Shown here: one piece after another, positions 864 through 62,905 of the stretch
How the letters are laid out: each line of letters opens with the position of its first letter
Position numbering within the stretch: position 1 is the stretch's first letter
Source: Mustelus asterias
Lineage: Eukaryota
Length of the DNA stretch: 64,000 bases
Direction of reading: 5' to 3'
Assembly (NCBI RefSeq): GCF_964213995.1
Contig: NC_135808.1
Coordinates: 32,426,001-32,490,000 of the forward strand
Position numbers and translations under genes: made by a program
The notes under the pieces: generated by a model
What the model saw: only the letters and a program-made list of their open reading frames with translations
Database searches by the model: none
What the model was told of the DNA's origin: nothing

Positions 864-1124
864 CGGATGTCTGGTTTGTGATCTTCAGCACTGTATTCAG
901 ATTCTCCTTCACCATGTCTGAGTGCGAGATCACCAGTTCTGTGATATAGTCCCAGAATTCAGAGTCGATATTTTCAGCCATGAACCTCTGTCTGCGAATG
1001 CAGCGACGGATATTACTGTCACAATATCCTGTTTGGATACCATCGACCACTGCAGTGCTTGTAACCGCAGGAAAATCTTCCATCCCAGAGACAACAGTGT
1101 ACATCACCGTGTGTGTGTTAGTGT
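864..1124 (-). CDS. MHC class I-like gene A, alpha1 exon (87 codons, phase 1/1)
   Basis: TTTCTTTTTACAG acceptor and GTAAGA donor; translates DTNTHTVMYTVVSGMEDFPAVTSTAVVDGIQTGYCDSNIRRCIRRQRFMAENIDSEFWD...KITNQTS(G), with class I hallmarks YxDS, RQ, FW and the NQT sequon; 261 nt like the alpha1 exons of B and C. Confidence 0.92.
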
Positions 1125-10115: not shown

Positions 10116-10796
10116 TGTAAGGAATAATCATTAAGACAACATATATTGGAAGGAATAATTATTCGGACAAGTAGGAGATAATAATTAACATAGAAGAGAT
10201 AATCACTACTTAAGAAGCTCTCATATATCACATATCTTATTCAGCATATACTTGTACCCTTTTAAGTGCACAATACCTTACCAGGTCAGTACACATGGAT
10301 ACTCACATAAATGAACATAAAGGCTAAAAGAAGTCAAGCAAACACACAGAAGCTGAAAGTAATTTCTTAAATAAACGTGAGAAAGTAAAAAGACTTGGAT
10401 GCCCTACAATGGTTGAACAAACAACAACCTTGGCTGATTAGACAATAAACTTCAGATAAGAAGGCAAGATGTAACCACAATGATATCATAGCACATTTAT
10501 TAGTGACCAATCAGAAAGAAGGCAGATAACGTAGGTCTCGTAAACCATGGTGGCTAACGAAAAGTGGCCTTGGGGTCTGCAACAAAAAAACCTTGACTGT
10601 AAGATAAGAATGATGAAATATGAAGCTAAATGTGTATAAAAAGGACTGTGAGAGCACTGGTTTTTTGGATTCATCTGGAAATCCCGGCTTTATTGAAATG
10701 TATTAGCTAATAAAGCCTTGCTGCCTGGAAGATCAAGACTCAGACTCTCTATTCTGATTGATGAACTCTTCTTGCCGTCCACGGGGAACCACGGCA
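10116..10796 (+). mobile_element. Solo LTR (681 bp) in intron 1 of gene A
   Basis: TG...CA ends, 4-bp TSD ATAT (10112-10115 and 10797-10800), TATAAAA ~10635, AATAAA ~10709; empty site present in gene B (~40850-40865) and gene C. Confidence 0.88.
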
Positions 10797-10889
10797 ATAT
10801 CACCCATTTCAAACTCTCACCAAAAGATTCAAATTCACCCCAGAGAGAGAGAGAGAGAGTGAGAATGGAAAAGTGAATTCTGTACTTAC

Positions 10890-10941
10890 CGGGAGAGACC
10901 CAGGAAAAACACAGGGAGATGGAGAAAAGGATCAGCAACAT
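10890..10941 (-). CDS. MHC class I-like gene A, leader exon (MLLILFSISLCFSWVSP, phase 1)
   Basis: ATG at 10941, hydrophobic signal peptide, G|GTAAGT donor; identical to the leaders of B and C. Confidence 0.9.
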
Positions 10942-11140
10942 TCTGGGAATCCACTGTCCCAATTCCAATCAGTGACTGCGAATTAAACACTCTGAGGATG
11001 AAACAACTTTATAAACTGAGGAGAAACATGAAAAAAACAAAAATTTTATCCAGACTCCATTTTCCTGTCTCAGTCGGACTTAGCTCATTTCCTGATTGCA
11101 GAAGCAGAGGATGACTGATTGGTTAGTCTCAGAAAATTAA

Positions 11141-11384: not shown

Positions 11385-14300
11385 TGTGGTGAACCATCGT
11401 TGGTTCCCACTGGATAGTACTGAGCCAGGGTCTGGCCAGTACTACAAGTATGTACATATGTTGCTGTTGGGTTAGGGATGGGTTGTGCTACTTGTTGCTG
11501 TTGGGGTTAGGTTGGGGTTGTTACACCTTTGTATTGTAGTGTTATGGTACATCCCAGTCGGGCTCCGCCTCCTGGGAGAGGTATAAAGGTCCCTGCTCTG
11601 GCTGGGACCCCTCAGTCTGGGATCGTGTATATAATTGTTGGCTGCTTCGTTACAGCAAATAAAAACCTTTATTTCCTGAGCATCAAGCCTCGTGTGTGAC
11701 AACGCGCATCAATTTTATTTGCTGTTGTTAAACTCTCGTCGAAGAAAAAAAAAAGAGAGTATGGAGCAGATACTGAAGCCGGAACGCCTTACACTAGATC
11801 CACGTGCGGTGGGCGCCTCTAACACCTTCGACCACTGGCTGAAGTGTTTCGAAGACTACCTGGCAGCCTCCGCAGCGGTCACCACAGATGATGACAGACT
11901 CCATGTCCTCCATGCGAGGGTAAGCGACACTGTCTACCTCGCGATCCGTGCGGCCACCGATTACACAAAGGCCCTCGAGCTTCTGAAGAAGCGTTATATC
12001 AAACCGCCCAATGAAATACACGCTCGTTACCTCTTAGCCACTCGACAACGGCAGTCTGGCGAAACGATGGAGGAATATGCGAACGAGCTCCTACAGCTAG
12101 CCAGGGGCTGTAACTGCAAAGCTGTGTCGGCTGAGCAGAGTATAAACTACCTCGCCCGAGATGCGTTTGTGGTGGGAGTCGGATCGTCGTACATTCGACT
12201 TAAACTGCTGGAGAAAGGTAACCTTGACCTTACCCAGGCAATCGAGCGAGCGGAGATGCTGGAGACGGCCTCCAAAAGCCTAGTATTGTATCCTGAAGAC
12301 CACGTGGAGACAACATGGCAGGAGCAGTCGCCAATCCCTCCTCGTCCCTCGGGTTCAAAATGCCGCGTAATGGCGTGCTCACACTCAGGCCAGACGACGG
12401 CAGCAGCTCCGGGTGGCCCGCGGTGTTACTTCGTTGGGGGAGCGAAGCATACTCGGCAACGGTGTCCCGCTAAGTCTGTGTTGTGCTCCGCCTGCGGTAA
12501 GAAGGGGCACTATTCGAAAGTGTGCCGATCTAAATCTAGGAACGGCAGTGCAGCCTGCGATTCCTCAGAGCCCGGGTCTTTGTCGTCGAAATCATCGAGG
12601 GGTTCGTCCACGTGCGAGGCCAGGACGACGCCATTACGGTCGACGGAGTCGGAGGTGTGTGACCACCAGGGGTCGCTGAGTTTGACGCCATCACCCACGT
12701 GCGACCTATGGGAGCGGCCATGTTGGTCGGCACCGACCGCGAACGACTAGCAGGGGTCCTCCTCCTCTATTTCAGCTGCCTGCAGTGGCGCTCATGAGCC
12801 AACGGTGGCGTCGATCATCCTGGACCAGGCCAAGCCTCATAGACTTGACAAATCTATGATGAACATCCAGGTAAATGACCACGTGATTTATTGTCTGTTT
12901 GACAGCGGGAGCACTGAGAGCTTTATCCACCCAGACACTGTGACGTGGTGTGGACTCCGGATTCAACCTGCCAAACAGACAATTTCTATGGCATCGAGGT
13001 CCCGGTCTGTCACCGTGCGAGGGAGTTGCGTGGTAACTTTGACGGTGCAAGGCACAGTTTACGGGCGTTTCAAGCTCCTAGTGTTGCCGTACCTTTGCGC
13101 GCCAATACTTCTCGGACTAAACTTCATGGTCCACTTGAGGAGTGTAACCCTACAGTACGGTGGGCCACTCCCTTCACTGTCAGTGGGAGAACAGCAGCCT
13201 CCAAATTGCCCAACGCACCCCGCTTGTAGCCTCTCGACGCTGAAGATCACCACACCCTCCCTGTTCCAGAATCTTGTGCCAGGCTGCAAGCCCATCGCGA
13301 CTAAAAGTAGGCGTTACAGCGCTGAGGATCGGATCTTCATTAGATCTGAGGTTCAGCGGCTCCTCAAAGAAAGGATCATACAACCCAGCGCTAGTCCGTG
13401 GAGAGCGCAGGTCGTGGTGGTCAAGAGCGGGAACAAACCCCGGATGGTCATTGACTACAGTCAGACCATTAATCGATATACGCAGCTGGATGCGTATCCT
13501 CTCCCGCGCATATCTGATATGGTCAATCAGATCGTGCAGTACCGGGTGTTCTCCACCATAGACCTCAAGTCTGCCTACCACCAACTCCCCATTCGCCCAG
13601 AGGACCGACAATACACGGCTTTTGAGGCGGATGGTCACTTGTATCACTTTCTCAGGGTTCCCTTTGGTGTCGCCAATGGGGTCTCGGTCTTCCAGCGTGC
13701 TATGGACCGAATGGTCGACCAGAACGGGCTGCGGGCTACCTTCCCGTACCTGCATAATGTCACCATCTGCGGCCATGACCAGCAGAACCACGACACGAAT
13801 CTCCTGAACTTCCTACGCACTGCATCTCGCCTGAACTTGACCTACAACAGGGAGAAGTGTGTGTTTCGTACGCGCCGTTTAGCCATCCTAGGATACGTGG
13901 TGGAAAACGGGGTCATTGGCCCTGATCCAGACCGTATGCACCCCCTTTCTGAACTTCCCTTGCCTGCTAGTGCAAAAGCACTGAGAAGATGCTTAGGCTT
14001 CTTCTCTTATTATGCGCAGTGGGTTCCCAATTACGCGGACAAAGCCCGTCCGCTCATTAAGTCCACTACTTTTCCCCTAACGCCAGAGGCCCGATTGGCC
14101 TTTGATAAATTAAAAGCCGACATCGCGAAAGCTACGATGCACGCTGTTGATGAGTCCATCCCCTTTCAGGTGGCGAGCGATGCATCTGATTTCGCCCTGG
14201 CCGCCACACTTAACCAGGCGGGCAGGCCCGTCGCATTTTTTTCCCGCACCCTCCAAGGCCCCGAAATCCAGCATTCAGCGGTGGAAAAGGAGGCCCAGGC

Positions 14301-16127
14301 CATTGTGGAGGCCGTCAGGCACTGGCGCCATTACTTGGCGGGAAAACGGTTCATCCTGATCACGGACCAGCGGTCCGTGGCGTTCATGTTTAATAACACG
14401 CAGAGGGGCAAGATCAAGAATGACAAGATCTTGCGGTGGAGAATTGAACTCTCCACCTATAACTATGACATCATGTATCATCCAGGGAAACTCAATGAGC
14501 CCTCGGATGCCCTCTCACGTTGAACATGCGCCAGTATACAGGAGGACCGTTTGCAGGCTCTCCATAATGACCTATGCCATCCTGGGGTCACTCGGCTCTA
14601 CCACTTTATAAAAGCCCGCAATCTGCCCTACTCGGTGGAGGACGTCAGGTCAGTAACAAGAAGCTGTCGGGTATGCGCGGAATGCAAACCGCACTTTTAC
14701 CCACCTGACCGGGCACATTTAGTCAAGGCCACTCGTCCCTTCGAGAGACTGAGTGTCGATTTTAAGGGCCCCCTTCCCTCAACAGATCGGAATGTGTACT
14801 TCCTCAACATCATTGACGAGTACTCGAGGTTCCCTTTTGTTGTTCCCTGCTCTGATACATCCGCTGCCACGGTTATCAAGGCATTCCGTGATCTCTTTAC
14901 CCTGTTCGGGTACCCCGGCTACATTCACAGCGACAGGGGCTCGTCGTTCATGAGCGATGACTTGAGGCAATTCCTGCTCTCATACGGGATTGCCTCTAGT
15001 AGGACCACGAGCTACAACCCTCGGGGTAACGGACAGGTGGAACGTGAGAATGCTACAGTCTGGAAGGCTGTCTTACTGGCGTTGAAGTCAAAATGCCTTC
15101 CAGTCTCCCGTTGGCAAGAGGTGCTCCCTGATGCGCTCCATTCTATTCGCTCACTCCTGTGTACGGCAACCAATGCTGCTCCCCATGAGAGGATGTTTTC
15201 ATTCCCTCGGAAGTCTTCCTCGGGGACCTCTTTACCGTCTTGGTTGACGTACTCAGGACCCGTCCTCCTGCGGCGACATGTAAGGGCCCTCAAGTCCGTC
15301 CCGTTGGTCGAACAGGTCCATCTCCTCCACGCCAACCCTCAGTATGCCTATGTGGCATACCCTGACGGGCGAGAGGACACGGTCTCGATCCGAGACCTGG
15401 CGCCAGCAGGGGACGTAGCAACCCCTGTCGCTCCCATACCCCCTGTTACAAACCCTTTAACTCTTGTTTCTCCCCCGGACACGGCGCGGGCAGCATCGGG
15501 ACCATTGCTTACTCCCGTGTACAGCTTGCCTGAGTCCAGAGGATGGTCGCCACTTCAGGGCGTGTCGGGACTCCATGGACTACCGTCACCTCAGGGTCAA
15601 CCGGCCTGTGAGTCTGTGGAGGAACAGCTGGACATCACCTTGGGGAGAACGCCACCGCAAGTGCCTACTACGGTGTCACCGCCGGTATTGAGGAGTTCAC
15701 AACGACGGTGCGGTCCCCCTGACCGTCTGAACTTATAGACTGATGACAAATTATTCTGTTTTTGTACCCCGCCGGTCTTTGTTCTCAAAGGAGGGGTGAA
15801 TGTGGTGAACCATCGTTGGTTCCCACTGGATAGTACTGAGCCAGGGTCTGGCCAGTACTACAAGTATGTACATATGTTGCTGTTGGGTTAGGGATGGGTT
15901 GTGCTACTTGTTGCTGTTGGGGTTAGGTTGGGGTTGTTACACCTTTGTATTGTAGTGTTGTAGTACATCCCAGTCGGGCTCCGCCTCCTGGGAGAGGTAT
16001 AAAGGTCCCTGCTCTGGCTGGGACCCCTCAGTCTGGGATCGTGTATATAATTGTTGGCTGCTTCGTTACAGCAAATAAAAGCCTTTATTTCCTGAGCATC
16101 AAGCCTCGTGTATGATAACGCGCATCA
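11385..16127 (+). mobile_element. Full-length Ty3/Gypsy LTR retrotransposon, inactive
   Basis: 327-bp LTRs 11385-11711 and 15801-16127 (TG...CA, ~5 mismatches), 5-bp TSD GGAGG, PPT AAAGGAGGGGTGAA, domain order gag-PR-RT-RH-IN. Confidence 0.97.
11761..15738 (+). pseudogene. Gypsy gag-pol polyprotein, single frame with two in-frame stops
   Basis: Zn knuckle CSACGKKGHYSKVC, protease LFDSGS, RT motif YLHN (catalytic D lost), RNase H DASD, integrase HHCC and DDE; TAG 12748-12750 and TGA 14521-14523. Confidence 0.93.
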
Positions 16128-28970: not shown

Positions 28971-29781
28971 AGTCCTATGGTCACACAGTAGTTAGCATTG
29001 GTGCCTCACAGCGCCAGGCAAAAGTACATTTTTGAACACATCAAACATCTGTATAAGAGCAAAATGGACTGTTGTCTATCAATATAAAATCTGACATTCT
29101 GCAGTGTCTCATTACACTCAGAATTACAATTTGTATGAACAATATAAATTTCTTAGCAATCGTTCACACTGGGAGATTTGACATGTTTTTCAGCCACTCT
29201 CTGTAGCTATGATGGGAGGGTCTTAGTCAGAGGTCTTTCCCCATGGAGTGTCTCCAGTAGCTGCCCCAAGCTGTGTTGTATCCCTCACCAGTATTCCTGG
29301 ATCTTGCAATGCGACAATCTGAAACCCTCAGTCATGGAGAACCCTTTGCCCTGGAAGAGCTGAGAGTTTCAGGCTGATTTTCACTGAGTTGATGGTCCTC
29401 CAGCAGGAGACGGTGTTTATCTCAGTGTGTGCTCCTGGGAACAGCCTGTACAGCGCAGAGTCCCTGTATAAAGGAGCTGTCGGGATGAACACTCTGTGAC
29501 TGTGTGGGAATTCAGCAGATCAACTTTCACTTTCCTTCATCTCTCACAACTTATAAAGTGAAGTGGAAAACTGCCCAGCACCAGAAAGGTGTTTCCAACA
29601 TCCTGATTGTCTTCTCCATTACCGGACGTATCACAGAGTCTTTTATACTGAGTCCAAAAAGTCTTGATCAAAATCCGCGAACATTTAAAGATATTTAAAA
29701 CTCTGAGCAATCAGAAAGTGAGAAAAGTGCACAAAATGTGAATGTATTTCATTCCCAACAATCTGTCCCTCAGTCACTGAC

Positions 29782-29814
29782 TGGGAGCTGTTGTGTACGT
29801 CCCACTTGGTGAAT
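29782..29814 (-). CDS. Gene B cytoplasmic exon (33 nt, DSPSGTYTTAP); reads through to TGA 29774-29776 if the GTCAGT donor is unused
   Basis: TTTATTTTACTTCTGCAG acceptor, phase 1, Tyr motif resembling the class I cytoplasmic GxYxxA. Confidence 0.65.
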
Positions 29815-30922: not shown

Positions 30923-31033
30923 CTCTCCGTTGTCTTTTCCAGATGATTATTCCGAATATAACAGCCAGTGCTGGGATCACTGATCCGATTATAATTCCAA
31001 GATGGGAGCGTCCCCAACTGTTTTCCGGGATTT
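30923..31033 (-). CDS. Gene B connecting peptide/transmembrane exon (EIPENSWGRSHLGIIIGSVIPALAVIFGIIIWKRQRR)
   Basis: TGTGTTTCAG acceptor, GTAAGA donor, 111 nt, ~21-residue hydrophobic stretch followed by a basic stop-transfer sequence. Confidence 0.88.
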
Positions 31034-31776: not shown

Positions 31777-32415
31777 CCGACTGATGGAGCTTGGGCTCTG
31801 CCAGGCTGCTGTGTTCAATTCGACAGGAGTATTGATCCTCATCCCCAGCATTTATTTCAATCTCTTTCTGGATCTGATGGGTCCCATCGTGGTTCGGTCG
31901 AACCCCCGAGGATAGTGTCTCAGACATTACCTCTCCATTCCTTAGCCAGTTCACCTCGATGTCTACAGGATAAAAGCCAGTAACCAGGCAGGAGAGAGTG
32001 AGCGACTTGTACTGACTATTGGGTTCACTATTGGGCGGCATGGTAGCACAGTGCTTAGCACTGCTGCTTCACAGCTCCAGGGTCCTGGGTTCGATTCCCG
32101 GCTCGGGTCACTGTCTGTGTGGAGTTTGCACATTCTCCTCGTGTCTGCGTGGGTTTCCTCCGGGTGCTCCGGTTTCCTCCCACAGCCCAAAGATGTGCGG
32201 GTTAGGTTGATTGGCCAGGTTAAGAAAAAAATTGCCCCTTAGAGTCCTGGGATGTGTAGGTTAGAGGGATTAGCGGGTAAATATGTGGGGGTAGGGCCTG
32301 GGTGGGATTGTGGTCGGTGCGGACTCGATGGGCCGAATGGCCTCCTTCTGCACTGTAGGGTTTCTATGACTTCTATGACTTCTATGACTTCTGGAGATGA
32401 AGACTTCAGGCTGAA
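31777..32415 (-). CDS. Gene B alpha3 (Ig C1) exon, 279 nt plus 360-nt SINE insertion
   Basis: LSCLVTGFYP, VNW, PNHDGTHQ, YSCRIEHSSL; 275/279 nt identical to gene C alpha3 once 32030-32389 is removed. Confidence 0.95.
32030..32389 (+). mobile_element. tRNA-derived SINE inserted antisense into the gene B alpha3 exon
   Basis: Full SINE from GGGCGGCA to the (TTCTATGAC)n tail; gene C shows the empty site. Confidence 0.95.
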
Positions 32416-32532
32416 CTGTCATGGGAAAGGGTGAAAACACAAACAATAAACCCACACTGAATGGAATGGGAGAACAGTTTGATAGATCAGTGAAGTTAGA
32501 TCAGAACATGGGCTCAAAACTGAATTCAACAC

Positions 32533-32808
32533 CTTTCCTTTTAAGACATTCCTTTCCAAAGTGTAAACGTAGTTTTAAACGTTCAATCAATTCTACTTCC
32601 AACTGCCATTTCCAAAACTTGTTCCAGGATTCGTCCGAATCCCATTTCTCCATGGTTTTCACTGCCATGTGATTGGATGCGACCCATCTCATTCTGTCTG
32701 GCTCTAAACTAATATAGTCCTTTCCATCAAATCCAAACCGCATCGACCTCTTAATGGAGCCGTCTTCAGTGGCCTCAACAGACCGAATCAATTGAAGAAC
32801 GTGAATTC
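32533..32808 (-). CDS. Gene B alpha2 exon (92 codons)
   Basis: CTGACAG acceptor, GTGTTG donor; GIHVLQ...FGFDGKDYISL...W...TMEKW; no Cys101 or Cys164. Confidence 0.93.
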
Positions 32809-32939
32809 CTGTCAGTAACAAATTAATCAATAATTATTTTAAAATTTTGGCAGGAGAGTCCAAATGGATTTTAGTATCAAACAGAAATGGGGATTTGTCA
32901 CTGTGCGATCAGAAGGGAAAGGGATTTAGTATCAGATAG

Positions 32940-33240
32940 ATAGAACTATTAAATCCCTGCAGTATAGAAGAAGGCCATTTGGCCATCGAATCTTCACCGA
33001 CTGTGTGAATGGAAAGACCATTTTACCCAGGCCCACCCCAGAAATATCCCTGTAACCTCACACATTTACCATAGCTAATCCACCTAACCTGCACATCTTT
33101 GGACAGTGGGAGGAAACTGGAGCACCCAGAGGAAACCCACACAGACACGGGGAGAAAGTGCAAACTCCACACAGACAGTTATCCAAGGCCAGAATTGAAC
33201 CCAGGTCGCTGGCACAGTGAGGCAGCAGTGCTAACCAGCT
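32940..33240 (-). mobile_element. tRNA-derived SINE
   Basis: Reverse-complemented SINE core and B box. Confidence 0.85.
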
Positions 33241-37980: not shown

Positions 37981-38130
37981 GTTTTTATCTATTAAGGGGA
38001 TATTCTTAAAGCTCAGCCCAACGAGTCAGATTTGGACATGATTAAAGCCCTGTTCTAATGATAATTATTACAGGAATGCAGCTCTATCTAGTCTGGGAAA
38101 AAAACTTTTAAATATCTAATTTTCTCTGTT

Positions 38131-38461
38131 GGCGGCACAGTAGCACAGTGGTTAGCACTGCTGCTTCACAGCTCCAGGGACCTGGGTTCGATTCCCGGCT
38201 TGGGTCACTGTCTGTGTGGAGTTTGCGCATTCTCCTCGTGTCTGCGAGGGTTTCCTCCGGGTGCTCCAGTTTCCTCCCACAGTCCAAAGATGTGCAGGTT
38301 AGGTTGATTGGCCATGCTAAAAATTGCCCCTTAGTGTCCTGGGATGCATAGATTAGAGGGATTAGCGGGTAAAATATATGGGGGTAGGGCCTGGGTGGGA
38401 TTGTGGTCGGTGCAGACTCGATGGGCCGAATGGCCTCTTTCTGTACTGTAGGGTTTCTATG
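38131..38461 (+). mobile_element. tRNA-derived SINE
   Basis: Same family as 32033-32389 and 59874-60225. Confidence 0.92.
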
Positions 38462-39734
38462 AATAACTATCTCTTCTATGAAATATTTAAAATCCTTTTA
38501 TGACAGTATAAACGCAATTAAAAGTATTCAGGAATAATGTTATGACCTATTATCAATCCACATTATCAGCTCACAGCTTACAGAAAATAGGAACATTTTT
38601 AACAACTAAATAAAATGAATTATAAGGGCTAATGAAAAGGGTGGTGTTGGTGTTTAATCAAGGAGGAGGCACCTACATTTGCTAAAAATGATGCAATCTG
38701 TCCCAGAAAGGTATAACGTACAGATTTCTCTCAAATAGATTAATAGTATTGTAATTTCAATGTATTTTCAACCCTCCAAAGTTTCTCCTTTTGCCAAGGG
38801 AGCTAGATATCTTAAAGCAGATAGCTTAAAGTAGAAGATCCTGCCGCTGTCAATGGATCCGTCCCATTGGCTGCACCCCACTCTGCTGGGAAACCTACAG
38901 TGGGCACCATCGGGGGGACCAGATCCCACTGGTGTAAACAGCCAAAAAGTTCTGGCCTATGTTTTTAATATTTTATAGTCATTAATGTTGTGATGCACAT
39001 ATCCATTGTAAATAAGTTAGAAAAAGAATATGTCTCTTGTAACTTTTCTGTAAGCAGAACACTCCTCTGTTGTATCTTCTGAAAGTGAGAAGATTCATAT
39101 TTTTGAGTGCAGACCCTGCACCCTTATCATATCTGGTTAATTATAAAGGGCCCAATAAATTACTTAACAGGCTCCCTGGAAGGTGGTAATCTTTCTTGAT
39201 GGGTCCTTACTGGGGCCCATTTTTCACTTCATTAATATCTGTGGATTGCTCTCCTCACATTCTCCATCCATGAGTGACTGTCTCTGTCCTTGATAATCTC
39301 CACTCCCTTATCTCAGGGAGAGGTTTCTGACATTGTCCTTTCACACTGAGTCCTGGATTCACATTGTCTATTGTGTAATAGTGGAGAAGGCCAATCTCAG
39401 CCCCATATATATCAATATACATTGAGACACAGCAAGAAAACAGCAATGAGCCAACAAGCTGCCCTTTCCTGGATCATCTCAACCCTCTCACCATATTCTC
39501 AACTTCTTCATTCATAACCCCATCTTCCCACCTTCATCAATGTCAACACAACTTTGTACAGATCTCAATCAGAATAGGGAGAAGGAACAGAATCACTCTC
39601 CGTGTCTCCCTGATTCATGGTCCCACACACTGTACACCCCAGGGACACAGTCTGCAGTATAACTGTGGCTGGGTACCTGTCTGACACACATTAAACAGGA
39701 CAGTCAGTGGGAGATTGGACATCAGTGATCTTAC

Positions 39735-39995
39735 CGGATGTCTGGTTTGTGTTCTTCAGGATCGTATTCAGATTCTTCATTGCAATGTCGGATCGTGCGT
39801 TCCCAATATCTGTGAGCATATTCCAGAATTCCTCCTTGAAATGTTCTTCCATGAACTTTTGCCTGGGGATCATCTGACGGATATCACTGTCATAATAATC
39901 TATTTCCACTCCATTGATCATTGCAACACCACTAACAACAGGAAAGTCTTTAATACCAGAGATTGCTGTGTATATCACAGTAAATGAGCTGGTAT
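39735..39995 (-). CDS. Gene B alpha1 exon (87 codons)
   Basis: TTTCTTTTACAG acceptor, GTAAGA donor; DTSSFTVIYTAISGIKDFP...YYDSDIRQMIPRQKF...FWN...NQTS(G). Confidence 0.94.
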
Positions 39996-40536
39996 CTGTA
40001 AAAGAAACAATTAAATTCACAGGTTAATAGACCTTTCCACACATTCCCAGCTGATCACAGTGAGAGCCATCCACACTGTGACAAACTCTAATAATCCTCC
40101 ACTTTATCCCAATGTCAGAATCCTCTCTAATATTAGAAACAGGGGGATGGACAATCCAGAGCAGGATCTCCACTGTCCTTCACAGAGCTTTTTAATCATC
40201 CCTTTATACACGCTCACATGGATGTTGGTGGTCTGAGATAACCCGGAATATTCAATCAAGAGAGAATCACAGCTGATCCTGGGGTGGGTGAAACACGGAT
40301 TATCCTTCTCCTCTCCATAGCGTTTCGAAGACTTTAGACCAGGAGTGATGAAGCTGTTTTGCTTCTCCCAATCAATACGAAAATTAAAATTGTCCATTTG
40401 AAGCATTTTCCATTTGCTCCAAGCTTCTCTGCTCTGGGTGTTTGTACATCCTGCTGTCAGGAGAGCTGAACACCAATCCCATCAGAGTCTTCCACACTGT
40501 GCTGACTTCAATGGTGTCAAATATCAGGTTGGCTGT

Positions 40537-40832
40537 TGACGCGCGATAAATCACACGGGAGGCTGGATGTACCCGGGAAATAAAGGCTTTTATTGCCAAC
40601 AATAACGGAGCTACTATATACAATATACAATCCCAGACTAAAGGGTCACCAGGCAGAGCAGTGACCTTTATACCTCTCCCAGAAGGCGGAGCCAACTGGC
40701 GTGTACCATAGGACTATATTAACAGGTAGAACAGCCCAACCCTAACCCCAACAGTAACATATCTACAGACTCATAGTACTGGCCAGACCATGGCTCAGCA
40801 CTCCTGGTGGTAACCAACAATGGTTCAGCACA
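40537..40832 (-). mobile_element. Solo LTR (296 bp) related to the Gypsy LTRs at 11385 and 15801, in gene B intron 1
   Basis: Reverse complement aligns to the Gypsy LTR (GAGAGGTATAAAGGTC, AATAAAAGCCTTTATTTCC); 5-bp TSD GCTGT; empty site in gene C near 45645. Confidence 0.92.
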
Positions 40833-40942
40833 GCTGTATAACAGCGTCTGAGCAAACATCACCCATTTCAAACTCTCACCAAAAGATTCAAATTCACCCC
40901 AGAGAGAGAGAGTGAGAATGGAAGAGTGAATTCTGTACTTAC

Positions 40943-40994
40943 CGGGAGAGACCCAGGAAAAACACAGGGAGATGGAGAAAAGGATCAGCAACAT
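40943..40994 (-). CDS. Gene B leader exon
   Basis: ATG 40994, MLLILFSISLCFSWVSP, G|GTAAGT. Confidence 0.92.
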
Positions 40995-41193
40995 TCTGGG
41001 AATCCACTGTCCCAATTCCAATCAGTGACTGGGAATTAAACACTCTGAGGAGGAAACAACTTTATAAACTGAGGGGAAACTTGAAAAAAACAAAAATTTT
41101 ATCCAGACTCCATTTTCCTGTCTCAGTCGAACTTTGCTCATTTCCTTATTGCAGAAGCAGAGGATGACTGAATGGTTAGTCTCAGAAAATTAA

Positions 41194-45240: not shown

Positions 45241-45488
45241 CTATTTTTCTGAGGCTAACCAATCAGAGCTTGTCCAGGAAGTTTAAGTTCAGGAAATGAT
45301 CAAACTGGAAATAAACAACAATAAAAGAGGGAAATGCGATGACTGGTCTGAACTGTTTCTGTCCTTCTGAATCTACTTGGACTTCTTGTTTATTGTGTGT
45401 TTTCCAATCACAATAAACAGTGTTAGATTCCTCCTCAGAGTGTTTAATTCGCAGTCACTGATTGGAATTGGGACAGTGGATTCCCAGA

Positions 45489-45540
45489 ATGTTGCTGATC
45501 CTTTTCTCCATCTCCCTGTGTTTTTCCTGGGTCTCTCCCG
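45489..45540 (+). CDS. MHC class I-like gene C leader exon
   Basis: ATG 45489, MLLILFSISLCFSWVSP, G|GTAAGT. Confidence 0.92.
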
Positions 45541-45812
45541 GTAAGTACAGAATTCACTCTTCCATTCTCACTCTCTCTCTCTGGGGTGAATTTGAATCTT
45601 TTGGTGAGAGTTTGAAATGGGTGATGTTTGCTCAGACGCTGTTATACAGCCAGCCTGATATTTGACACCATTGAAGTCAGCACAGTGTGGAAGACTCTGA
45701 TGGGATTGGTGTTCAGCTCTCCTGACAGCAGGATGTACAAACACCCAGAGCAGAGAAGCTTGGAGCAAATGGAAAATGCTTCAAATGGACAATTTTAATT
45801 TTCACTTCGATT

Positions 45813-46788: not shown

Positions 46789-47049
46789 CTACTGATTCAA
46801 TAATTGCAGTATACACCGCGGTCTCCGGAATGACAGATTTCCCCGAGGTGACTAAAGTTGCGACGGTCAATGGAATTCAGGTGAATTATCACGACAGTAA
46901 CATTCGACAGACCATCCCCAGACAGCAGTTCCTGATGGAATCTTTCAAACAGGCCTATTGGGATGATCTGTCTAGTATTGGAAACAGACATTCGACCGTC
47001 ACAAAGGATTATCTGTTTACAGTCATGAAGAGCATGAACCAGACATCAG
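46789..47049 (+). CDS. Gene C alpha1 exon (87 codons)
   Basis: TTATTTTCCAG acceptor, GTAAGA donor; ATDSIIAVYTAVSGMTDFPEV...YHDSNIRQTIPRQQF...YWD...NQTS(G). Confidence 0.94.
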
Positions 47050-49679: not shown

Positions 49680-50745
49680 ACACTCAGTCCACTCTAGCAC
49701 TGAACCCTGGGATACTGAACACAGTCCATCCCAGCACTGAACCCAGGGATCTGGACTCAGTTCCCCAACACAGATCCCTGGGACACTGAACTCCATCCCC
49801 CAGCACTGACCCCCTGGGACACTGAACTCCATCCCCCAGCACTGACCCCTGGTACACTGAACTCCATCCCCCAGCACTGACCCCCTGGGACACTGAACTC
49901 AGTCCCCCAGCACTGACCCCTGGGACACTGAACTCAGTCCCCCAGCACAGACCCCTGGGACACTGAACTCCATCCCCCAGCACTGACCCCCTGGGACACT
50001 GAACTCAGTCCCCCAGCACTGACCCCTGGGACACTGAACTCAGTCCCCCAGCACAGACCCCTGGGACACTGAACTCCATCCCCCAGCACTGCCCCCTGGG
50101 ACACTGAACTCAGACCATCTCCCAGCACTGACCCCCTGGGAAACTGAACTCAGTCCCCCAGCACTGACCCCTGGGACACTGAACTCAGTCCCCCAGCACT
50201 GACCCCTGGGACACTGAACTCAGTCCATCTCCCAGCACTGACCCCCTGGGAAACTGAACTCAGTCCCCCAGCACTGACCCCTGGGACACTGAACTCAGTC
50301 CCCCAGCACTGACCCCTGGGACACTGAACTCAGACCCCCATCACTGACCCCCTGGGACACTGAACTCCATCCCCCAGCACTGCCCCCTGGGACACTGAAC
50401 TCAGTCCCCCAGCACTGACCCCTGGGACACTGAACTCCATCCCCCAGCACTGACCCCTGGGACACTGAACTCAGTCCCCCAGCACTGACCCCTGGGACAC
50501 TGAACTCCATCCCCCAGCACTGACCCCTGGTACACTGAACTCAGTCCCCCAGCACTGACCCCTGGGACACTGAACTCAGACCCCCAGCACTGACCCCTGG
50601 GACACTGAACTCAGTCCCCCAGCACTGACCCCCTGGGACACTGAACTCCATCCCCCAGCTCTGACCCCTGGGACACTGAACTCCGTCACCCAGCACTGAC
50701 CCCTGGGACACTGAACTCAGACCCCCAGCACTGACACCTGGGACA
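49680..50745. repeat. Minisatellite, 31-36 bp unit (CTGGGACACTGAACTCAGTCCCCCAGCACTGACCC), ~30 copies, gene C intron 2
   Basis: Reverse complement of the 61-817 array. Confidence 0.95.
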
Positions 50746-51114
50746 CATAATCACTCATTTCTATCTGATACTAGATCCCTTTCCCTCTGGTAACATTGTG
50801 ACACTAATCCCCATTTCTGATACTAGATCCCCGATCCCCTCTGATCACACTGGGACTCTAATCCCCATTTCTATCTGATGGTAGATCACTGATCCCCTCT
50901 GATCACACTGCGACTCTAATCCCCATTTCTATCTGATACTAGATCACTGATCCCCTCTGATCACACTGCGACTCTAATCCCCATTTCTATCTGATACTAG
51001 ATCACTGATCCCCGCTGATCACACTGCGACTCTAATCCCCATTTCTATCTGATACTAGATCACTGATCCCCGCTGATCACACTGCGACTCTAATCCCCAT
51101 TTCAAAGAGCTTCG

Positions 51115-54747: not shown

Positions 54748-56569
54748 AGGCAAAGGAAAATCCAAAGTGCTCCTGCAAATACATAAAGGGCAAAAGGGTA
54801 ACAAGTAGGGCCTCTTAAGGGTCAACAAGGTCATCTATGTGCGTATCCACAAGAGATGGATTATTGAGATCCTAAATGAATATTTCTCATCAGTATTTAC
54901 TGTTGAGAAAAGCATGGATGTTATGGAACTTGGGGAAATAAATAGTGATGTCTTGAGGAGTGTACATATTACACAGAAGGAGGTGTTGGAAGTCTTAAAG
55001 CGCATCAAGGTAGATAAATCCCCGGGACTTGATGAAGTGTATCCCAGGACATTGTGGGAGGCTAGGGAGGAAATTGTGGGTCCCCTAGCAGAGATTTTTG
55101 AATTATCGATAGCCACAGGTGAGGTGCCTGAAGATTGGAGGGTGGCAAATGTTGTGCCTTTGTTTAAAAAGGGCTGCAGGGAAAAGCCTGGGAATTACAG
55201 GCTAGTGAACCTCACATTTATGGTGGGGAGGTTGCTGGAAGGTATTTTGAGAGACAGGATTTACAGACATTTAGAGACGCAAGGACTGATTAGAGACAGT
55301 CAGCATGGCTTTGTGAGTGGAAAATCATGTCTCACAAATTTGATTGAGTTTTTTGAAGGGGTAACCAAGAAGGTAGATGAGGGCAGGGCAGTTGATGTTG
55401 TCTACATGGACTTTAGAAAGGCCTTTGACAAGGTACCGCATGGTAAGGTTAAATCTCACAGGACCCAGGTGAGGTAGCTAAATGGATCCAAAATTGGCTT
55501 GACGACAGCAGCCAGAGGGTAGTTGTAGAGGATTGTTTTTCAAACTGGAGGCCTGTGACCAGCGGTGTGCCTCAGGGATCAGTGCTGGGTCCACTGTTAT
55601 TTGTCATTTATATTAATGATTTGGATGAGAATATAGGAGGCATGGTTAGTAAGTTTGCAGATGACACCAAGATTGGTGGCATAGTGGACAGCGAAGAAGG
55701 TCATCTCAGATTGCAACGGGATCTTGATCAATTGGACCAGTGGGCTGACAAATGGCAGATGGAGTTTAATTTAGACAAATGCGAGGTGATGCATTTTGGG
55801 AGATTGAACCAGGGCAGGACTTACTCAATTAATTGTAGGGCGTTGGGGGAGAGTTACAGAGCAAAGAGATCTAGGGGTACAGGTTCATAGCTCCTTGAAA
55901 GTGAAGTCACAAGTGGACAGAGTGGTGAAGGCGGCATTCGGCACGCTTGGTTTTATTGGTCAGAACATTGAATACAGGAGTTGGGACATCTTGTTGAAGT
56001 TGTACAAGATATTGGTAAGGCCGCACTTGGAACACTGTGTACAGTTCTGGTCACCCGATTATAGAAAATATATTATTAAACTAGAAAGAGTGCAGAAAAG
56101 ATTTACTAGGATGCTACCGGGACTTGATGGTTTGAGTTATAAGGAGAAGCTTGACAGACTGGGACTTTTTTCTCTGGAGCGTAGAAGGCTGAGGGGTGAA
56201 CTTATAGATGTCTATAAAATAATGAGGGGCATAGACAAGGTGATAGTCAATATCATTTCCCAGAGGTAGGGGAGTCTAAAACTAGAGGGCATAGGTTTAA
56301 GGTGAGAGGGGAGAGATACAAAAGGGTTCAGAGGGGCAATTGTTTCACACCGAGGGTGATGAGTGGCTGGAACCAGCTGCCAGAGGTAGTAGTGGAGGTG
56401 GGTACATTTTTCTAACCTTTTAAAAAGCATTTAGACAGTTACATGGGTAAGATGGGTATAGAGGGATATGGGCCAAATGCGGGCAATTGGGACTAGTTTA
56501 CGGCTTTAAAAAAAGGGCGGCAGGGACAAGTTGGGCCGAAGGGTCTGTTTCCATGCTGGAAACCTCTAC
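54748..56569 (+). mobile_element. CR1 LINE ORF2, 5'-truncated
   Basis: RT motifs with frameshifts. Confidence 0.93.
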
Positions 56570-57687
56570 GACTCTAATCTCCATTTCAATCTGATACTAG
56601 ATCCCCGATCCCCTCTGATGACACCATGACTCTAATCCCCATATCTATCTGAGACCAGATCCCTTTATCCTCTGATCATACTGTGACTCTAACCCCCATT
56701 TCTATCTGATACTAGATCCCTGATCCCCTCTGATCACACAGTGACTATAATCCCATTTATATCTGATACTAGATCCCTGATCTGCTCTGATCACACTGCG
56801 ACTCTAATCCCCATTTCTATCTGATACGAGATCCCTTTCCCCTCGAATCACACTGTGACTTGAATCCCCATTTCTATTTTACACCAGATGCCCCATGAAC
56901 ACACTGTGACTCTAATCCCCATTTATATCTAATACCAGATCCCTGTTCCCCTCTGATCACACTGTGACTCTATTCCCCATCTCAATCTGATACTAGATCC
57001 CTGATCCCCTCTGATCACACTGCGACTCAAATCCCCATTTCTATCTGATACTATATCTCTGATGCCCTCTGATCACACTGTGACTCTAATCCCCATTTCA
57101 ACCTGATACTAGATCCCTGATCCCCTCTGATTACACTGCGACTCAAATGTCCATTTCTGATACTAGATCTCCAAATTACTCTGATCACAGTGACTCTAAT
57201 CCCCATTTCTATACTAAATCACTGATCCCCTCTAATTACATTGCGACTCTAATCCCCATTTATATCTGATACTAGATCCCTGATCCCCTCTGATCACACT
57301 GTGACTCTCACCCCCATTTCTGTCTGATACTAGATCTCTGATCCCCTCTGATCATACTGTGACTTAAATCCCCATTCTATTTGATACCAGATCCCTGATC
57401 CCCTCTGATCACACTGTGACTCTAATCCCCATTTCTACCTGATTCTAGATCCCCATCCCCTCAGATCATATTGCGACTCAAATCCCCATTTCTGATACAA
57501 GATCCCTGATCCCCCCTGATCACACTGTGACTCTAATCCCCATTTCTGATACTAGATCCCTGATCCCCTCTGATCACACTGTGACTCTAATCCCCATTTC
57601 TATCTGATACTAGATCCCTTTTCGCTCTGATCTGATTGTTAGTGATTTTCCATTAATGATAGATCATTAATTATCAATCTCTGACAG

Positions 57688-57963
57688 GAATTCACACTTT
57701 CCAGTTGATTATGATTGTTGAGGTCACTGAAGACGGCTCCATTAAGAGATCGATGCGGTTTGGATTTGATGGAAAGGACTATATTAGTTTAGAGCCAGAC
57801 AGAATGAGATGGGTCGCAACCAATCACTTCGCAGTGAAGACTAAAGAGAAATGGGATCTGAATGAATCCTGGAACAAGCACTGGAAAAGGACTTTGGAAG
57901 TACATTGTGTGCAGTATTTGAAAAGATATTTACAAGCTGGAAAGGAACATTTTGAACGGAAAG
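57688..57963 (+). CDS. Gene C alpha2 exon (92 codons)
   Basis: CTCTGACAG acceptor, GTATCT donor; GIHTFQLIMIVE...FGFDGKDYISL...TKEKW...LEVHCVQYLKRYLQAGKE. Confidence 0.94.
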
Positions 57964-59860: not shown

Positions 59861-59873
59861 CTATGGATCTAAT

Positions 59874-60225
59874 GGGCGGCACGGTAGCACAGTGGTTAGC
59901 ACTGCTGCTTCACAGCTCCAGGGTCCCGGGTTCGATTCCCGGCTCGGGTCACTGTCTGTGTGGAGTTTGCACATTCTCCTTGTGTCTGTGTGGGTTTCCT
60001 CCGGGTGCTCCGGTTTCCTCCCACAGTCCAAAGATGTGCGGGTTAGGTTGATTGGCCAGGTTAAAAAATTGCCCCTTAGAGTCAAGGGATGTGTAGGTTA
60101 GAGGGATTAGTGGGTAAAATATGTGGGGGTAGGGCCAGGGTGGGATTGTGGTCGGTGCAGACTCGATGGGCCGAATGGCCTCCTTCTGCACTGTAGGGTT
60201 TCTATGATTCTATTTCTATGATTCT
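59874..60225 (+). mobile_element. tRNA-derived SINE
   Basis: Nearly identical to the SINE in gene B alpha3. Confidence 0.93.
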
Positions 60226-60476
60226 ATAACTGCTTTAGGGCAGGTTTAAAGAGGCAGCACAAGGTTTAGAGAAAGTCCCTGCCCCCAGCAGTGTAGTTGA
60301 ATGTAACAGCAGATTCTGGTGGTGAAGGGACTGTGTCTCTGAGCTTTTTAGATAATTTATTGACTTTCTTGAGCTGTTTCTAAAACTAATTCAGAGAGCA
60401 GGGGGATCTTCAATTTGTAGTCATGACCATCTCCCTGTTAGCTCCACGAGATCCCTGTCTAGATTCCCAATTGGGT

Positions 60477-62450
60477 GCTGAGACCCCCTTCACACAGCCA
60501 ATTGGCACAGTTCCTGCAGAGACCCCCTTCACACTGCCAATTGGCACAGTTCCTGCAGAGACCCCCTTCACACTGCCAATTGGCACAGTTCCTGCAGAGA
60601 CCCCCTTCACACAGCCAATTGGCACAGTTCCTGCAGAGACCCCACTTCACACAGCCAATTGGCACAGTTCCTGCAGAGACCCCCTTCACACTGCCAATTG
60701 GCACAGTTCCTGCACAGACCCCCTTCACACTGCCAATTGGCACAGTTCCTGCACAGACCCCCTTCACACTGCCAACTGGCACAGTTCCTGCAGAGACCCC
60801 CTTCGCACTGCCAATTGGCACAGTTCCTGCACAGACCCCCTTCACACTGCCAACTGGCACAGTTCCTGCAGAGACCCCCTTCGCACTGCCAATTGGCACA
60901 GTTCCTGCAGAGACCCCCTTCACACTGCCAATTGGCACAGTTCCTGCACAGACCCCCTTCACACTGCCAATTGGCACAGTTCCTGCACAGACCCCCTTCA
61001 CACTGCCAACTGGCACAGTTCCTGCAGAGACCCCCTTCGCACTGCCAATTGGCACAGTTCCTGCAGAGACCCCCTTCACACTGCCAATTGGCACAGTTCC
61101 TGCAGAGACCCCCTTCACACTGCCAATTGGCACAGTTCCTGCAGAGACCCTTCACACTGCCAACTGGCACAGTTCCTGCAGAGACCCCCTTCGCACTGCC
61201 AATTGGCACAGTTCCTGCAAAGACCCCCTTCACACTGCCAATTGGCACAGTTCCTGCACAGACCCCCTTCACACTGCCAATTGGCACAGTTCCTGAAGAG
61301 ACCCTTCACACTGCCAATTGGCACAGTTCCTGAAGAGACCCTTCACACTGCCAATTGGCACAGTTCCTGCACAGACCCCCTTCGCACTGCCAATTGGCAC
61401 AGTTCCTGCAGAGACCCCCTTTCACACTGCCAATTGGCACAGTTCCTGCACAGACCCCCTTCACACTGCCAACTGGCACAGTTCCTGCAGAGACCCCCTT
61501 CGCACTGCCAATTGGCACAGTTCCTGCACAGACCCCCTTCACACTGCCAATTGGCACAGTTCCTGAAGAGACCCTTCACACTGCCAATTGGCACAGTTCC
61601 TGCACAGACCCCCTTCGCACTGCCAATTGGCACAGTTCCTGCAGAGACCCCCTTTCACACTGCCAATTGGCACAGTTCCTGCACAGACCCCCTTCACACT
61701 GCCAACTGGCACAGTTCCTGCAGAGACCCCCTTCGCACTGCCAATTGGCACAGTTCCTGCACAGACCCCCTTCACACTGCCAATTGGCACAGTTCCTGAA
61801 GAGACCCTTCACACTGCCAATTGGCACAGTTCCTGCAGAGACCCTTCACATTGTCAATTGGCACAGCTCCTGCAGAGACGCTTTACACTGCCAATTGGCG
61901 CAGTTCCTGCAGAGACCCCCTTCACACTGCCAACTGGCGCAGTTCCTGCAGAGACCCCCTTCACACTGCCAATTGGCGCAGTTCCTGCAGAGACCATTTT
62001 CACACTGCCAATTGGCGCAGTTCCTGCAGAGACCATTTTCACACTGCCAATTGGCACAGTTCCTGCAGAGACCCCCTTCACACTGCCAACTGGCGCAGTT
62101 CCTGCAGAGACCCCCTTCACACTGCCAATTGGCGCAGTTCCTGCAGAGACCATTTTCACACTGCCAATTGGCACAGTTCCTGCAGAGACCCCTTTCACAC
62201 TGAGAATTAGCATGATTCCTGCAGAGACCCCATTCACACGGCCAATTGGCACAGTTCCTACAGAGACCCTTCACACTGCCAATTGGCACAGTTCCTGCGG
62301 AGACCCCATTCACACGGCCAATTGGCACAGTTCCTACAGAGACCCTTCACACTGCCAATTGGCACAGTTCCTGCAGAGACCCTTCACACTGCCAATTGGC
62401 ACAGTTCCTACAGAGACCCCATTCACACTGCCAATTGGCACAGTTCCTGC
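60477..62450. repeat. 39-bp minisatellite (CTGCAGAGACCCCCTTCACACTGCCAATTGGCACAGTTC), ~50 copies, gene C intron 3
   Basis: Visible tandem units; 13-residue periodic ORFs on both strands. Confidence 0.96.
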
Positions 62451-62626: not shown

Positions 62627-62905
62627 TTCAGCCTGACGTCTTCATCTCCAGAAGTGAACCCAATAGTCAGTACAAGTCGCTCACTCTCTCCTGCCTGGTT
62701 ACTGGCTTTTATCCTGCAGACATCGAGGTGACCTGGCTAAGGAATGGAGAGGTAATGTCTGAGACACTATCCTCGGGGGTTCGACCGAACCACGATGGGA
62801 CCCATCAGATCCAGAAAGAGATTGAAATAAATGCTGGGGATGAGGATCAATACTCCTGTCAAATTGAACACAGCAGCCTGGCAGAGCCCAAGCTCCATCA
62901 GTCGG
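62627..62905 (+). CDS. Gene C alpha3 (Ig C1) exon (93 codons)
   Basis: CCCTTTCCCATTACAG acceptor, GTAAGG donor; C-x-TGFYP, W, PNHDGT, YSC-x-IEHSSL. Confidence 0.96.

What the first reader, a model, noticed from the sequence alone, without database searches (positions are those of the whole stretch)
32533..32808. Alpha2 domains lack the canonical Cys101-Cys164 disulfide
Aligned without gaps to HLA numbering (G91 start), position 101 is Val in both B and C (QLIRSVE, QLIMIVE versus classical QxMxGC). Position 164 is Leu in B and an unpaired Cys in C; B has another lone Cys near 178. This bond is nearly invariant in class I and pins the alpha2 helix to the sheet. Inference: a more flexible or reshaped groove, with free thiols that could support dimers or covalent partners.
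Basis: partly seen in the sequence, partly recalled or inferred. Interest (0 to 1): 0.75.

Follow-up and report, generated by a model that had tools for sequence, protein, structure and literature searches.

The report
Shark MHC family lacking alpha2 disulfide
These shark immune genes really do lack a disulfide bond that nearly all MHC class I proteins keep, but their whole many-copy family lacks it across sharks, and that family is likely the already described UEA lineage, so this is an old family trait rather than a new discovery.

Summary
Observation confirmed. Genes B (32533-32808, minus) and C (57688-57963, plus) have Val101; position 164 is Leu in B and Cys in C. No alternative exon restores a pair. 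The trait is family-wide: 0 of 68 distinct alpha2 domains from 13 shark species have Cys101 and 5 keep Cys164, while 184 of 194 outside class I domains have both. Dogfish UCA and a nurse-shark family member in a 2023 published alignment lack both. The family is most likely UEA; I could not read its 2021 paper. Gly100 and Trp167 were lost with the cysteines, and Trp152/Trp156 are near-invariant. This points to a groove held by hydrophobic packing that no longer clamps peptide N-termini (inferred). Free-thiol dimers are unsupported: Cys164 is a relic and Cys178 is sporadic (4 of 68). The scan's notes show no earlier record of this trait.

The parts
32533..32808 (-). Gene B alpha2 exon: Ser100, Val101, Leu164, Arg167, Trp152, Trp156, lone Cys178
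   Evidence: identical to the alpha2 of RefSeq model P0003 (XP_078073798.1)
40943..40994 (-). Gene B leader exon
39735..39995 (-). Gene B alpha1 exon (Val7, Phe59, Asn84; no Cys)
31777..32415 (-). Gene B alpha3 exon, split by a SINE; both Ig cysteines lie in the downstream part
32027..32386 (+). 360-bp tRNA-derived SINE inserted antisense into gene B alpha3; read-through has stops in all three frames
   Evidence: 91-94% identical to copies at 38122-38481 and 59869-60225
30923..31033 (-). Gene B transmembrane exon
29774..29814 (-). Gene B cytoplasmic exon with stop
45489..45540 (+). Gene C leader exon (head-to-head with B)
46789..47049 (+). Gene C alpha1 exon (Ala7, Tyr59, Ser84; no Cys)
57688..57963 (+). 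Gene C alpha2 exon: Ile100, Val101, unpaired Cys164, Tyr167
62627..62905 (+). Gene C alpha3 exon, intact
864..1124 (-). Gene A alpha1 exon (leader at 10890-10941); its alpha2 is outside the window and has Val101/Phe164 in model P0125

Best explanation
Genes B and C belong to a many-copy shark non-classical MHC class I family, likely UEA, in which Cys101 is absent from every member examined, and the alpha2 helix is likely held on the sheet by hydrophobic packing instead of a disulfide. Shown: Val101 opposite a mostly hydrophobic residue 164; Gly100 and Trp167 lost in all members; Trp152 and Trp156 near-invariant; beta2-microglobulin contact residues kept. Inferred: the heavy chain still pairs with beta2-microglobulin; without the Gly100 kink and the bond, the helix end drops and the Tyr7/Tyr159/Trp167 wall that clamps a peptide N-terminus is gone; the tryptophan-lined groove binds a hydrophobic non-peptide ligand. 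Cys164 in C is a buried relic and Cys178 in B a sporadic Tyr-to-Cys change. Gene B itself is probably disabled by the SINE in alpha3.
For: Family counts over 68 distinct alpha2 domains (69 rows): Cys101 0, Gly100 0, Trp167 0, Cys164 5, Tyr159 15, Trp152 67, Trp156 68, hydrophobic 164 in 53; Val101 in 65 of 69. Outside control: 184 of 194 have both cysteines. Gln96, Asp122, Pro235, Gln242 and both alpha3 cysteines are in 69 of 69 (their roles are recalled). AlphaFold on the alignment gives a class I fold with pLDDT 92 and 94 in the blocks holding 101 and 164; best match shark UAA 6lup, target TM 0.86. B vs C dN/dS is below 1 in alpha1 (0.37/1.25) and alpha2 (0.20/0.31). PMC8236899 section 13 links Gly100, the raised bond and the groove-blocking Trp167, and notes that alpha1 lost the equivalent pair in all class I. 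UEA fit: shark-only hits in 13 species; nearest named relative by alpha2 is UCA (35% vs 23-25% for UDA and UAA-like); a UDA-like model has an adjacent accession, matching the UDA+UEA cluster of PMC10751288.
Against: No sequence labelled UEA was available: the 2023 supplement has 0 'UEA' hits and labels the matching nurse-shark sequence 'UCA'. The C-terminal anchors are largely kept (Thr143 50 of 69, Lys146 62, Trp147 69, Tyr/Phe123 65), which fits peptide binding at one end. Position 164 is Ser, Gly, Asp, His, Thr or a gap in 15 of 68, so the packing is not strict. AlphaFold confidence says nothing on stability and no coordinates were available for packing or burial. The UCA+family split has SH-aLRT 93 in a quick tree with UCA on a long branch. 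No ligand or expression data.
Confidence: 0.65

Rival explanations
1. Same family and same loss, but the molecule still binds peptides by their C-terminus, with an open or lipid-accommodating N-terminal end (overhanging or N-acylated peptides).
For: Thr143, Lys146, Trp147 and Tyr/Phe123 are mostly kept while Tyr7, Tyr159 and Trp167 are lost. PMC8236899 says Trp167 is what blocks this end. Chicken YF1 chains are the top solved-structure sequence hits for C's alpha2, and one YF1 entry holds N-palmitoylated glycine; this is weak.
Against: Arg84 is kept in only 13 of 69 and not in A, B or C. Trp152 and Trp156, with Trp97 in 52 of 69, would crowd the groove.
Confidence: 0.2
2. Unpaired cysteines are functional and form covalent dimers or partner bonds.
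For: C has a lone Cys164 and B a lone Cys178. An alpha1 Cys near HLA 45 is present in 27 of 69 family rows. PMC4364491 discusses dimer roles for extra alpha1 cysteines in teleost lineages.
Against: Cys164 is in 5 of 68 and Cys178 in 4 of 68. Tyr is the family residue at 178 (63 of 69), one base change away. B shares Cys178 with a paralogue whose alpha2 is 93% identical, so it was probably copied with the exon. B and C lack the Cys near 45.
Confidence: 0.07
3. The cysteine losses are decay in pseudogenes.
For: Gene B has a SINE in alpha3.
Against: Gene C is intact in the exons inside the window; the loss is shared by 68 distinct domains in 13 species with many invariant residues; dN/dS is below 1.
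Confidence: 0.03
4. The family is not UEA but an unnamed shark lineage allied to UCA.
For: The only literature label I saw on a family member is 'UCA'.
Against: It is only 21/32/45% identical to dogfish UCA in alpha1/2/3. It is shark-wide, multicopy and apparently beside UDA, as UEA is described. It is not UAA, UBA, UDA, UFA or UGA, whose query sequences all keep both cysteines.
Confidence: 0.08

Closest known systems
Shark MHC class Ib lineage UEA (Almeida et al. 2021, J Immunol 207:824; not held, abstract recalled; described in passages of PMC10751288 and PMC12562908)
   Same: Multicopy, found only in sharks here, apparently beside a UDA-like gene, classical anchors partly lost, aromatic groove
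   Different: No named UEA sequence could be compared. Whether that paper comments on the missing disulfide is unknown to me.
Spiny dogfish UCA (P0121, AAN78091.1 / Q8HWI9; AF515705 in the PMC10751288 supplement)
   Same: Val101, no Cys164, non-Gly 100, Trp97, Trp152, Trp156
   Different: Only 21/32/45% identity to B in alpha1/2/3; also lost Trp147 and Thr143; no close relative found
Nurse shark sequence labelled Gcirratum_UCA_NODE_26056 (PMC10751288 Supplemental File 10)
   Same: By eye the same family in all three domains; Val101 and Leu164 as in gene B
   Different: Its alpha1 resembles paralogue P0019 more than B; its label conflicts with the UEA name in the paper's text
Classical shark UAA (P0114/P0115; PDB 6lup) and UDA, UBA, UFA, UGA
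   Same: Class I fold, exon layout, alpha3 disulfide, beta2-microglobulin contact residues
   Different: All keep Cys101 and Cys164; UAA and UDA also keep Gly100, Tyr159, Trp167 and Tyr171

Membership tests
MHC class I heavy chain | alpha1-alpha2 platform, C1-set alpha3, transmembrane segment, one exon per domain | tested here: met
   PF00129 and PF07654 above cut-off; exon map; fold match to 6lup
MHC class I heavy chain | Cys101-Cys164 disulfide | tested here: not met
   0 of 68 family domains have Cys101
Classical class Ia (UAA) | Peptide-terminus anchors Y7, Y59, R84, Y123, T143, K146, W147, Y159, Y171 (list recalled) | tested here: not met
   B keeps Y123, T143, K146, W147 only; C also keeps Y59 and Y171
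UEA | Expanded multigene family | tested here: met
   three genes in 64 kb; 68 distinct alpha2 domains in 13 species
UEA | Present in sharks, not in rays or chimaeras (recalled from the abstract) | tested here: met
   all named family hits are sharks; the two ray hits are 35% identical and keep both cysteines (120 of 124 hits listed; word-seeded search, so absence is not proven)
UEA | Related to dogfish UCA (recalled) | tested here: met
   shared Val101, Trp152, Trp156; alpha2 identity 35% vs 23-25%; split support SH-aLRT 93, long branch
UEA | In the class Ib cluster with UDA, apart from the UBA cluster | tested here: inconclusive
   no genome held; adjacent accessions XP_078073773 (UDA-like) and XP_078073780-98; unchecked notes place class II 2.0 Mb and UBA 7.9-9.8 Mb away
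UEA | Clusters with deposited, named UEA sequences and one of three sublineages (recalled) | not testable with these tools
   paper not held; no UEA-labelled sequence found
UBA, UDA, UFA, UGA | Sequence membership; reference queries keep both alpha2 cysteines | tested here: not met
   supplement alignment read by eye; UDA-like rows form a separate clade

The most novel reading that the evidence does not exclude
The UEA/UCA ancestor discarded a whole structural module (Gly100 kink, Cys101-Cys164, Trp167) and fixed Trp152/Trp156, giving a class I groove with an alpha1-like, disulfide-free alpha2 half that has been stable since early shark evolution. No solved structure of such a molecule was found, and this reading may not be in print.
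Probability: 0.3. Interest if true: 0.45.

Novelty: already known. Interest (0 to 1): 0.22.

Why it matters
In classical class I the alpha2 disulfide is needed for efficient folding and peptide loading (recalled). A large, old family that works without it is a natural test of what the bond is for and a sensible structural target. The trait is not particular to this window, and sequences showing it are already public (UCA record AAN78091.1; 2023 supplement alignment). The value here is a clean count and a testable structural reading, not a discovery.

Tried and rejected
Alternative exon or register restoring the pair: none. Substitute disulfide in B or C: each has one cysteine in alpha1+alpha2. 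Whole-genome search: no genome held. Almeida 2021 (UEA) and Almeida 2020 (UDA): not held, so their text, figures and supplements may already state the loss. Ten paper searches and the passages read gave no statement on this disulfide in UEA or UCA; subscription papers are not searched. Expression: no RNA holder listed. Contigs laid on 32200-33000 could not tell whether B has a SINE-free allele: one contig stops matching at the SINE edge but carries two other letters, so it is probably a paralogue; joints across the whole insertion were not examined. Single-sequence fold of C's isolated alpha2: pLDDT 48.5, uninformative. Careful tree did not finish; the quick tree was used. UCA homologue search found no close relative. 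No complex with beta2-microglobulin was modelled. Rows left out of alignment A1: read-through models with two genes (P0001, P0002, P0124, P0127), partial models and most extra isoforms; gene C was therefore scored separately from P0001. In one search, one of 9 'Cys164' rows (P0077) is an artefact of a truncated alpha2.

Full report
Observation. The coordinates mark a 276-bp alpha2 exon of an MHC class I gene (gene B, minus strand) with canonical splice ends; gene C has its counterpart at 57688-57963 on the plus strand. Both align without gaps to the top solved class I chains shown. Position 101 is Val in both, 164 is Leu in B and Cys in C, and B has Cys178. Neither gene has another cysteine in alpha1 or alpha2, and no other alpha2-like exon lies in the window. 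As a control, 162 proteins outside the family gave 208 alpha2 domains; 14 did not cover both positions, 184 of the other 194 have both cysteines, 10 have one, none has neither.

Context. The window holds three class I genes: A (leader and alpha1 only), B (all exons) and C (leader to alpha3), with B and C head to head. RefSeq models labelled Mustelus asterias match them exactly in the exons compared: P0003 for B, the first half of read-through model P0001 for C, P0125 for A. Gene B's alpha3 exon is split by a 360-bp antisense SINE (32027-32386) with stops in all three frames. Of 37 in-frame GT/GC-AG combinations none reproduces the continuous alpha3 of P0003, and the alpha2 donor has no in-frame alternative acceptor inside the exon. 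I infer that B is disabled in this haplotype. The rest of B is clean (3 differences in 249 bases from C's alpha3), so the insertion is probably recent. Contigs could not show whether a SINE-free allele exists.

The loss is a family trait. Two searches returned a large family at about 55-80% identity from 13 named shark species, including Heptranchias and Pristiophorus as well as galeomorph sharks, so it predates that split (taxonomy recalled). None of 79 alpha2 hits has Cys101. In the curated alignment (69 family rows, 68 distinct alpha2 domains): Cys101 0, Cys164 5, Gly100 0, Trp167 0, Tyr159 15, Trp152 67, Trp156 68, Cys178 4. The 12 UAA-like, UDA-like and ray rows all have Gly100, Cys101, Cys164 and Trp167. 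The single other exception is dogfish UCA, with Val101, Val164, Trp152 and Trp156. The quick tree separates family plus UCA from the rest with SH-aLRT 93, with UCA on a long branch, so a single ancestral loss is likely but not proven.

Mechanism. Shown: Val101 in 65 of 69 rows and a hydrophobic residue at 164 in 53 of 68 domains; Gln96, Asp122, Pro235, Gln242 and the alpha3 cysteines in 69 of 69; a confident class I model around both positions whose best solved match is shark UAA; dN below dS between B and C. From PMC8236899 (passages and section 13 read): the class I bond sits high because Gly100 breaks the strand, this turns Trp167 up to block the groove end, and alpha1 lost the equivalent pair in all class I. 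The family lost exactly these residues together, plus Tyr7 and mostly Tyr159. I infer hydrophobic packing in place of the bond, a lowered helix end, no clamp for a peptide N-terminus, and a tryptophan-lined groove (97, 147, 152, 156) for a hydrophobic non-peptide ligand, on a heavy chain that still pairs with beta2-microglobulin. Against this, Thr143, Lys146, Trp147 and Tyr/Phe123 are mostly kept, which leaves C-anchored peptides open, and 15 of 68 domains have a small, polar or missing residue at 164. Packing, burial, stability and ligand were not measured.

Free thiols. Cys164 is a minority relic at a position that faces the sheet in class I (established structure). Cys178 replaces the family's Tyr (63 of 69) by one base change. 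B's alpha2 is 93% identical to paralogue P0004, which also has Cys178, while their alpha1 domains are 51% identical, so B looks like a mosaic that acquired the exon with the cysteine. Nothing here suggests selected thiols in B or C.

Comparison with what is known. PMC10751288 (passages) places multicopy UEA with single-copy UDA in one class Ib cluster and UBA in another; PMC12562908 (passages) names UBA and UEA as the two expanded shark families. Supplemental File 10 of PMC10751288 (parts 97 and 98 of 98 read) aligns a nurse-shark sequence of this family, labelled UCA, with Val101 and Leu164, and dogfish UCA with Val101 and Val164, beside UAA, UBA, UDA, UFA and UGA queries that keep both cysteines; I compared these by eye. 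A ray query labelled UHA there also shows no alpha2 cysteines. The word UEA does not occur in that supplement. A UDA-like model has an accession adjacent to the family's models. By elimination, distribution and UCA kinship the family is most likely UEA (about 0.9), but I had no named UEA sequence. The defining paper (Almeida et al. 2021) is not held; what I say of its abstract is recalled. PMC4364491, PMC9586880 and PMC11958417 (passages) say nothing on this point. Ten searches found no statement on the missing bond, which is weak because subscription papers are not covered. The scan's notes hold nothing near this window, by words or by sequence; notes on the same genome describe the separate UBA cluster.

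Verdict. Real, lineage-wide, and visible in public sequences and a published alignment. What remains of interest is the coordinated loss of the Gly100-disulfide-Trp167 module in a family with no solved structure among the matches seen. Interest 0.22.

Noticed in passing
window 32027-32386: A 360-bp antisense SINE splits gene B's alpha3 exon; RefSeq model XP_078073798.1 reads through it although no GT/GC-AG splice gives that sequence.
   Followed up: partly
window 864-1124 (gene A alpha1): Two cysteines near HLA positions 36 and 45, on neighbouring strands, could form a new alpha1 hairpin disulfide; seen in 3 of 69 family rows, all M. asterias. The cysteine near 45 alone is in 27 of 69.
   Followed up: partly
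window 40833-41055, 45428-45650, 10796-11002: Leader-exon blocks of A, B and C are 96-99.6% identical and alpha3 of B and C 98.9%, while alpha1 is 48% identical in protein: exon-wise homogenisation.
   Followed up: partly
P0106, P0111, P0112 vs window leader exons: UDA-like proteins, including nurse shark QGX07421.1, carry the same 17-residue leader as this family despite about 30% identity in the groove, suggesting leader sharing between lineages in the cluster.
   Followed up: no
window 32533-32808 vs P0004: Gene B is a probable mosaic: alpha2 is 93% identical to P0004 and 79-85% to its apparent orthologues in other sharks, while alpha1 is 51% identical to P0004.
   Followed up: partly
window 11385-16127: Gypsy-like LTR retroelement with LTRs 98.5% identical and stop-interrupted gag-pol frames, upstream of gene A; a 70% LTR-like match lies at 40536-40835 in gene B's first intron.
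   Followed up: no
window 60476-62450, 56566-57632, 49682-51103: Long minisatellites in gene C's introns; C's alpha2-alpha3 intron is about 4.7 kb against 117 bp in B.
   Followed up: no
P0001, P0002, P0124, P0127: Annotated models that fuse two family genes through the transmembrane exon; probably read-through or annotation artefacts.
   Followed up: no
P0163, P0164, P0169, P0172, P0174, P0215, P0247, P0289: Ten class I alpha2 domains outside the family have lost one cysteine (9 lack Cys164, 1 lacks Cys101), so single losses occur sporadically elsewhere.
   Followed up: no
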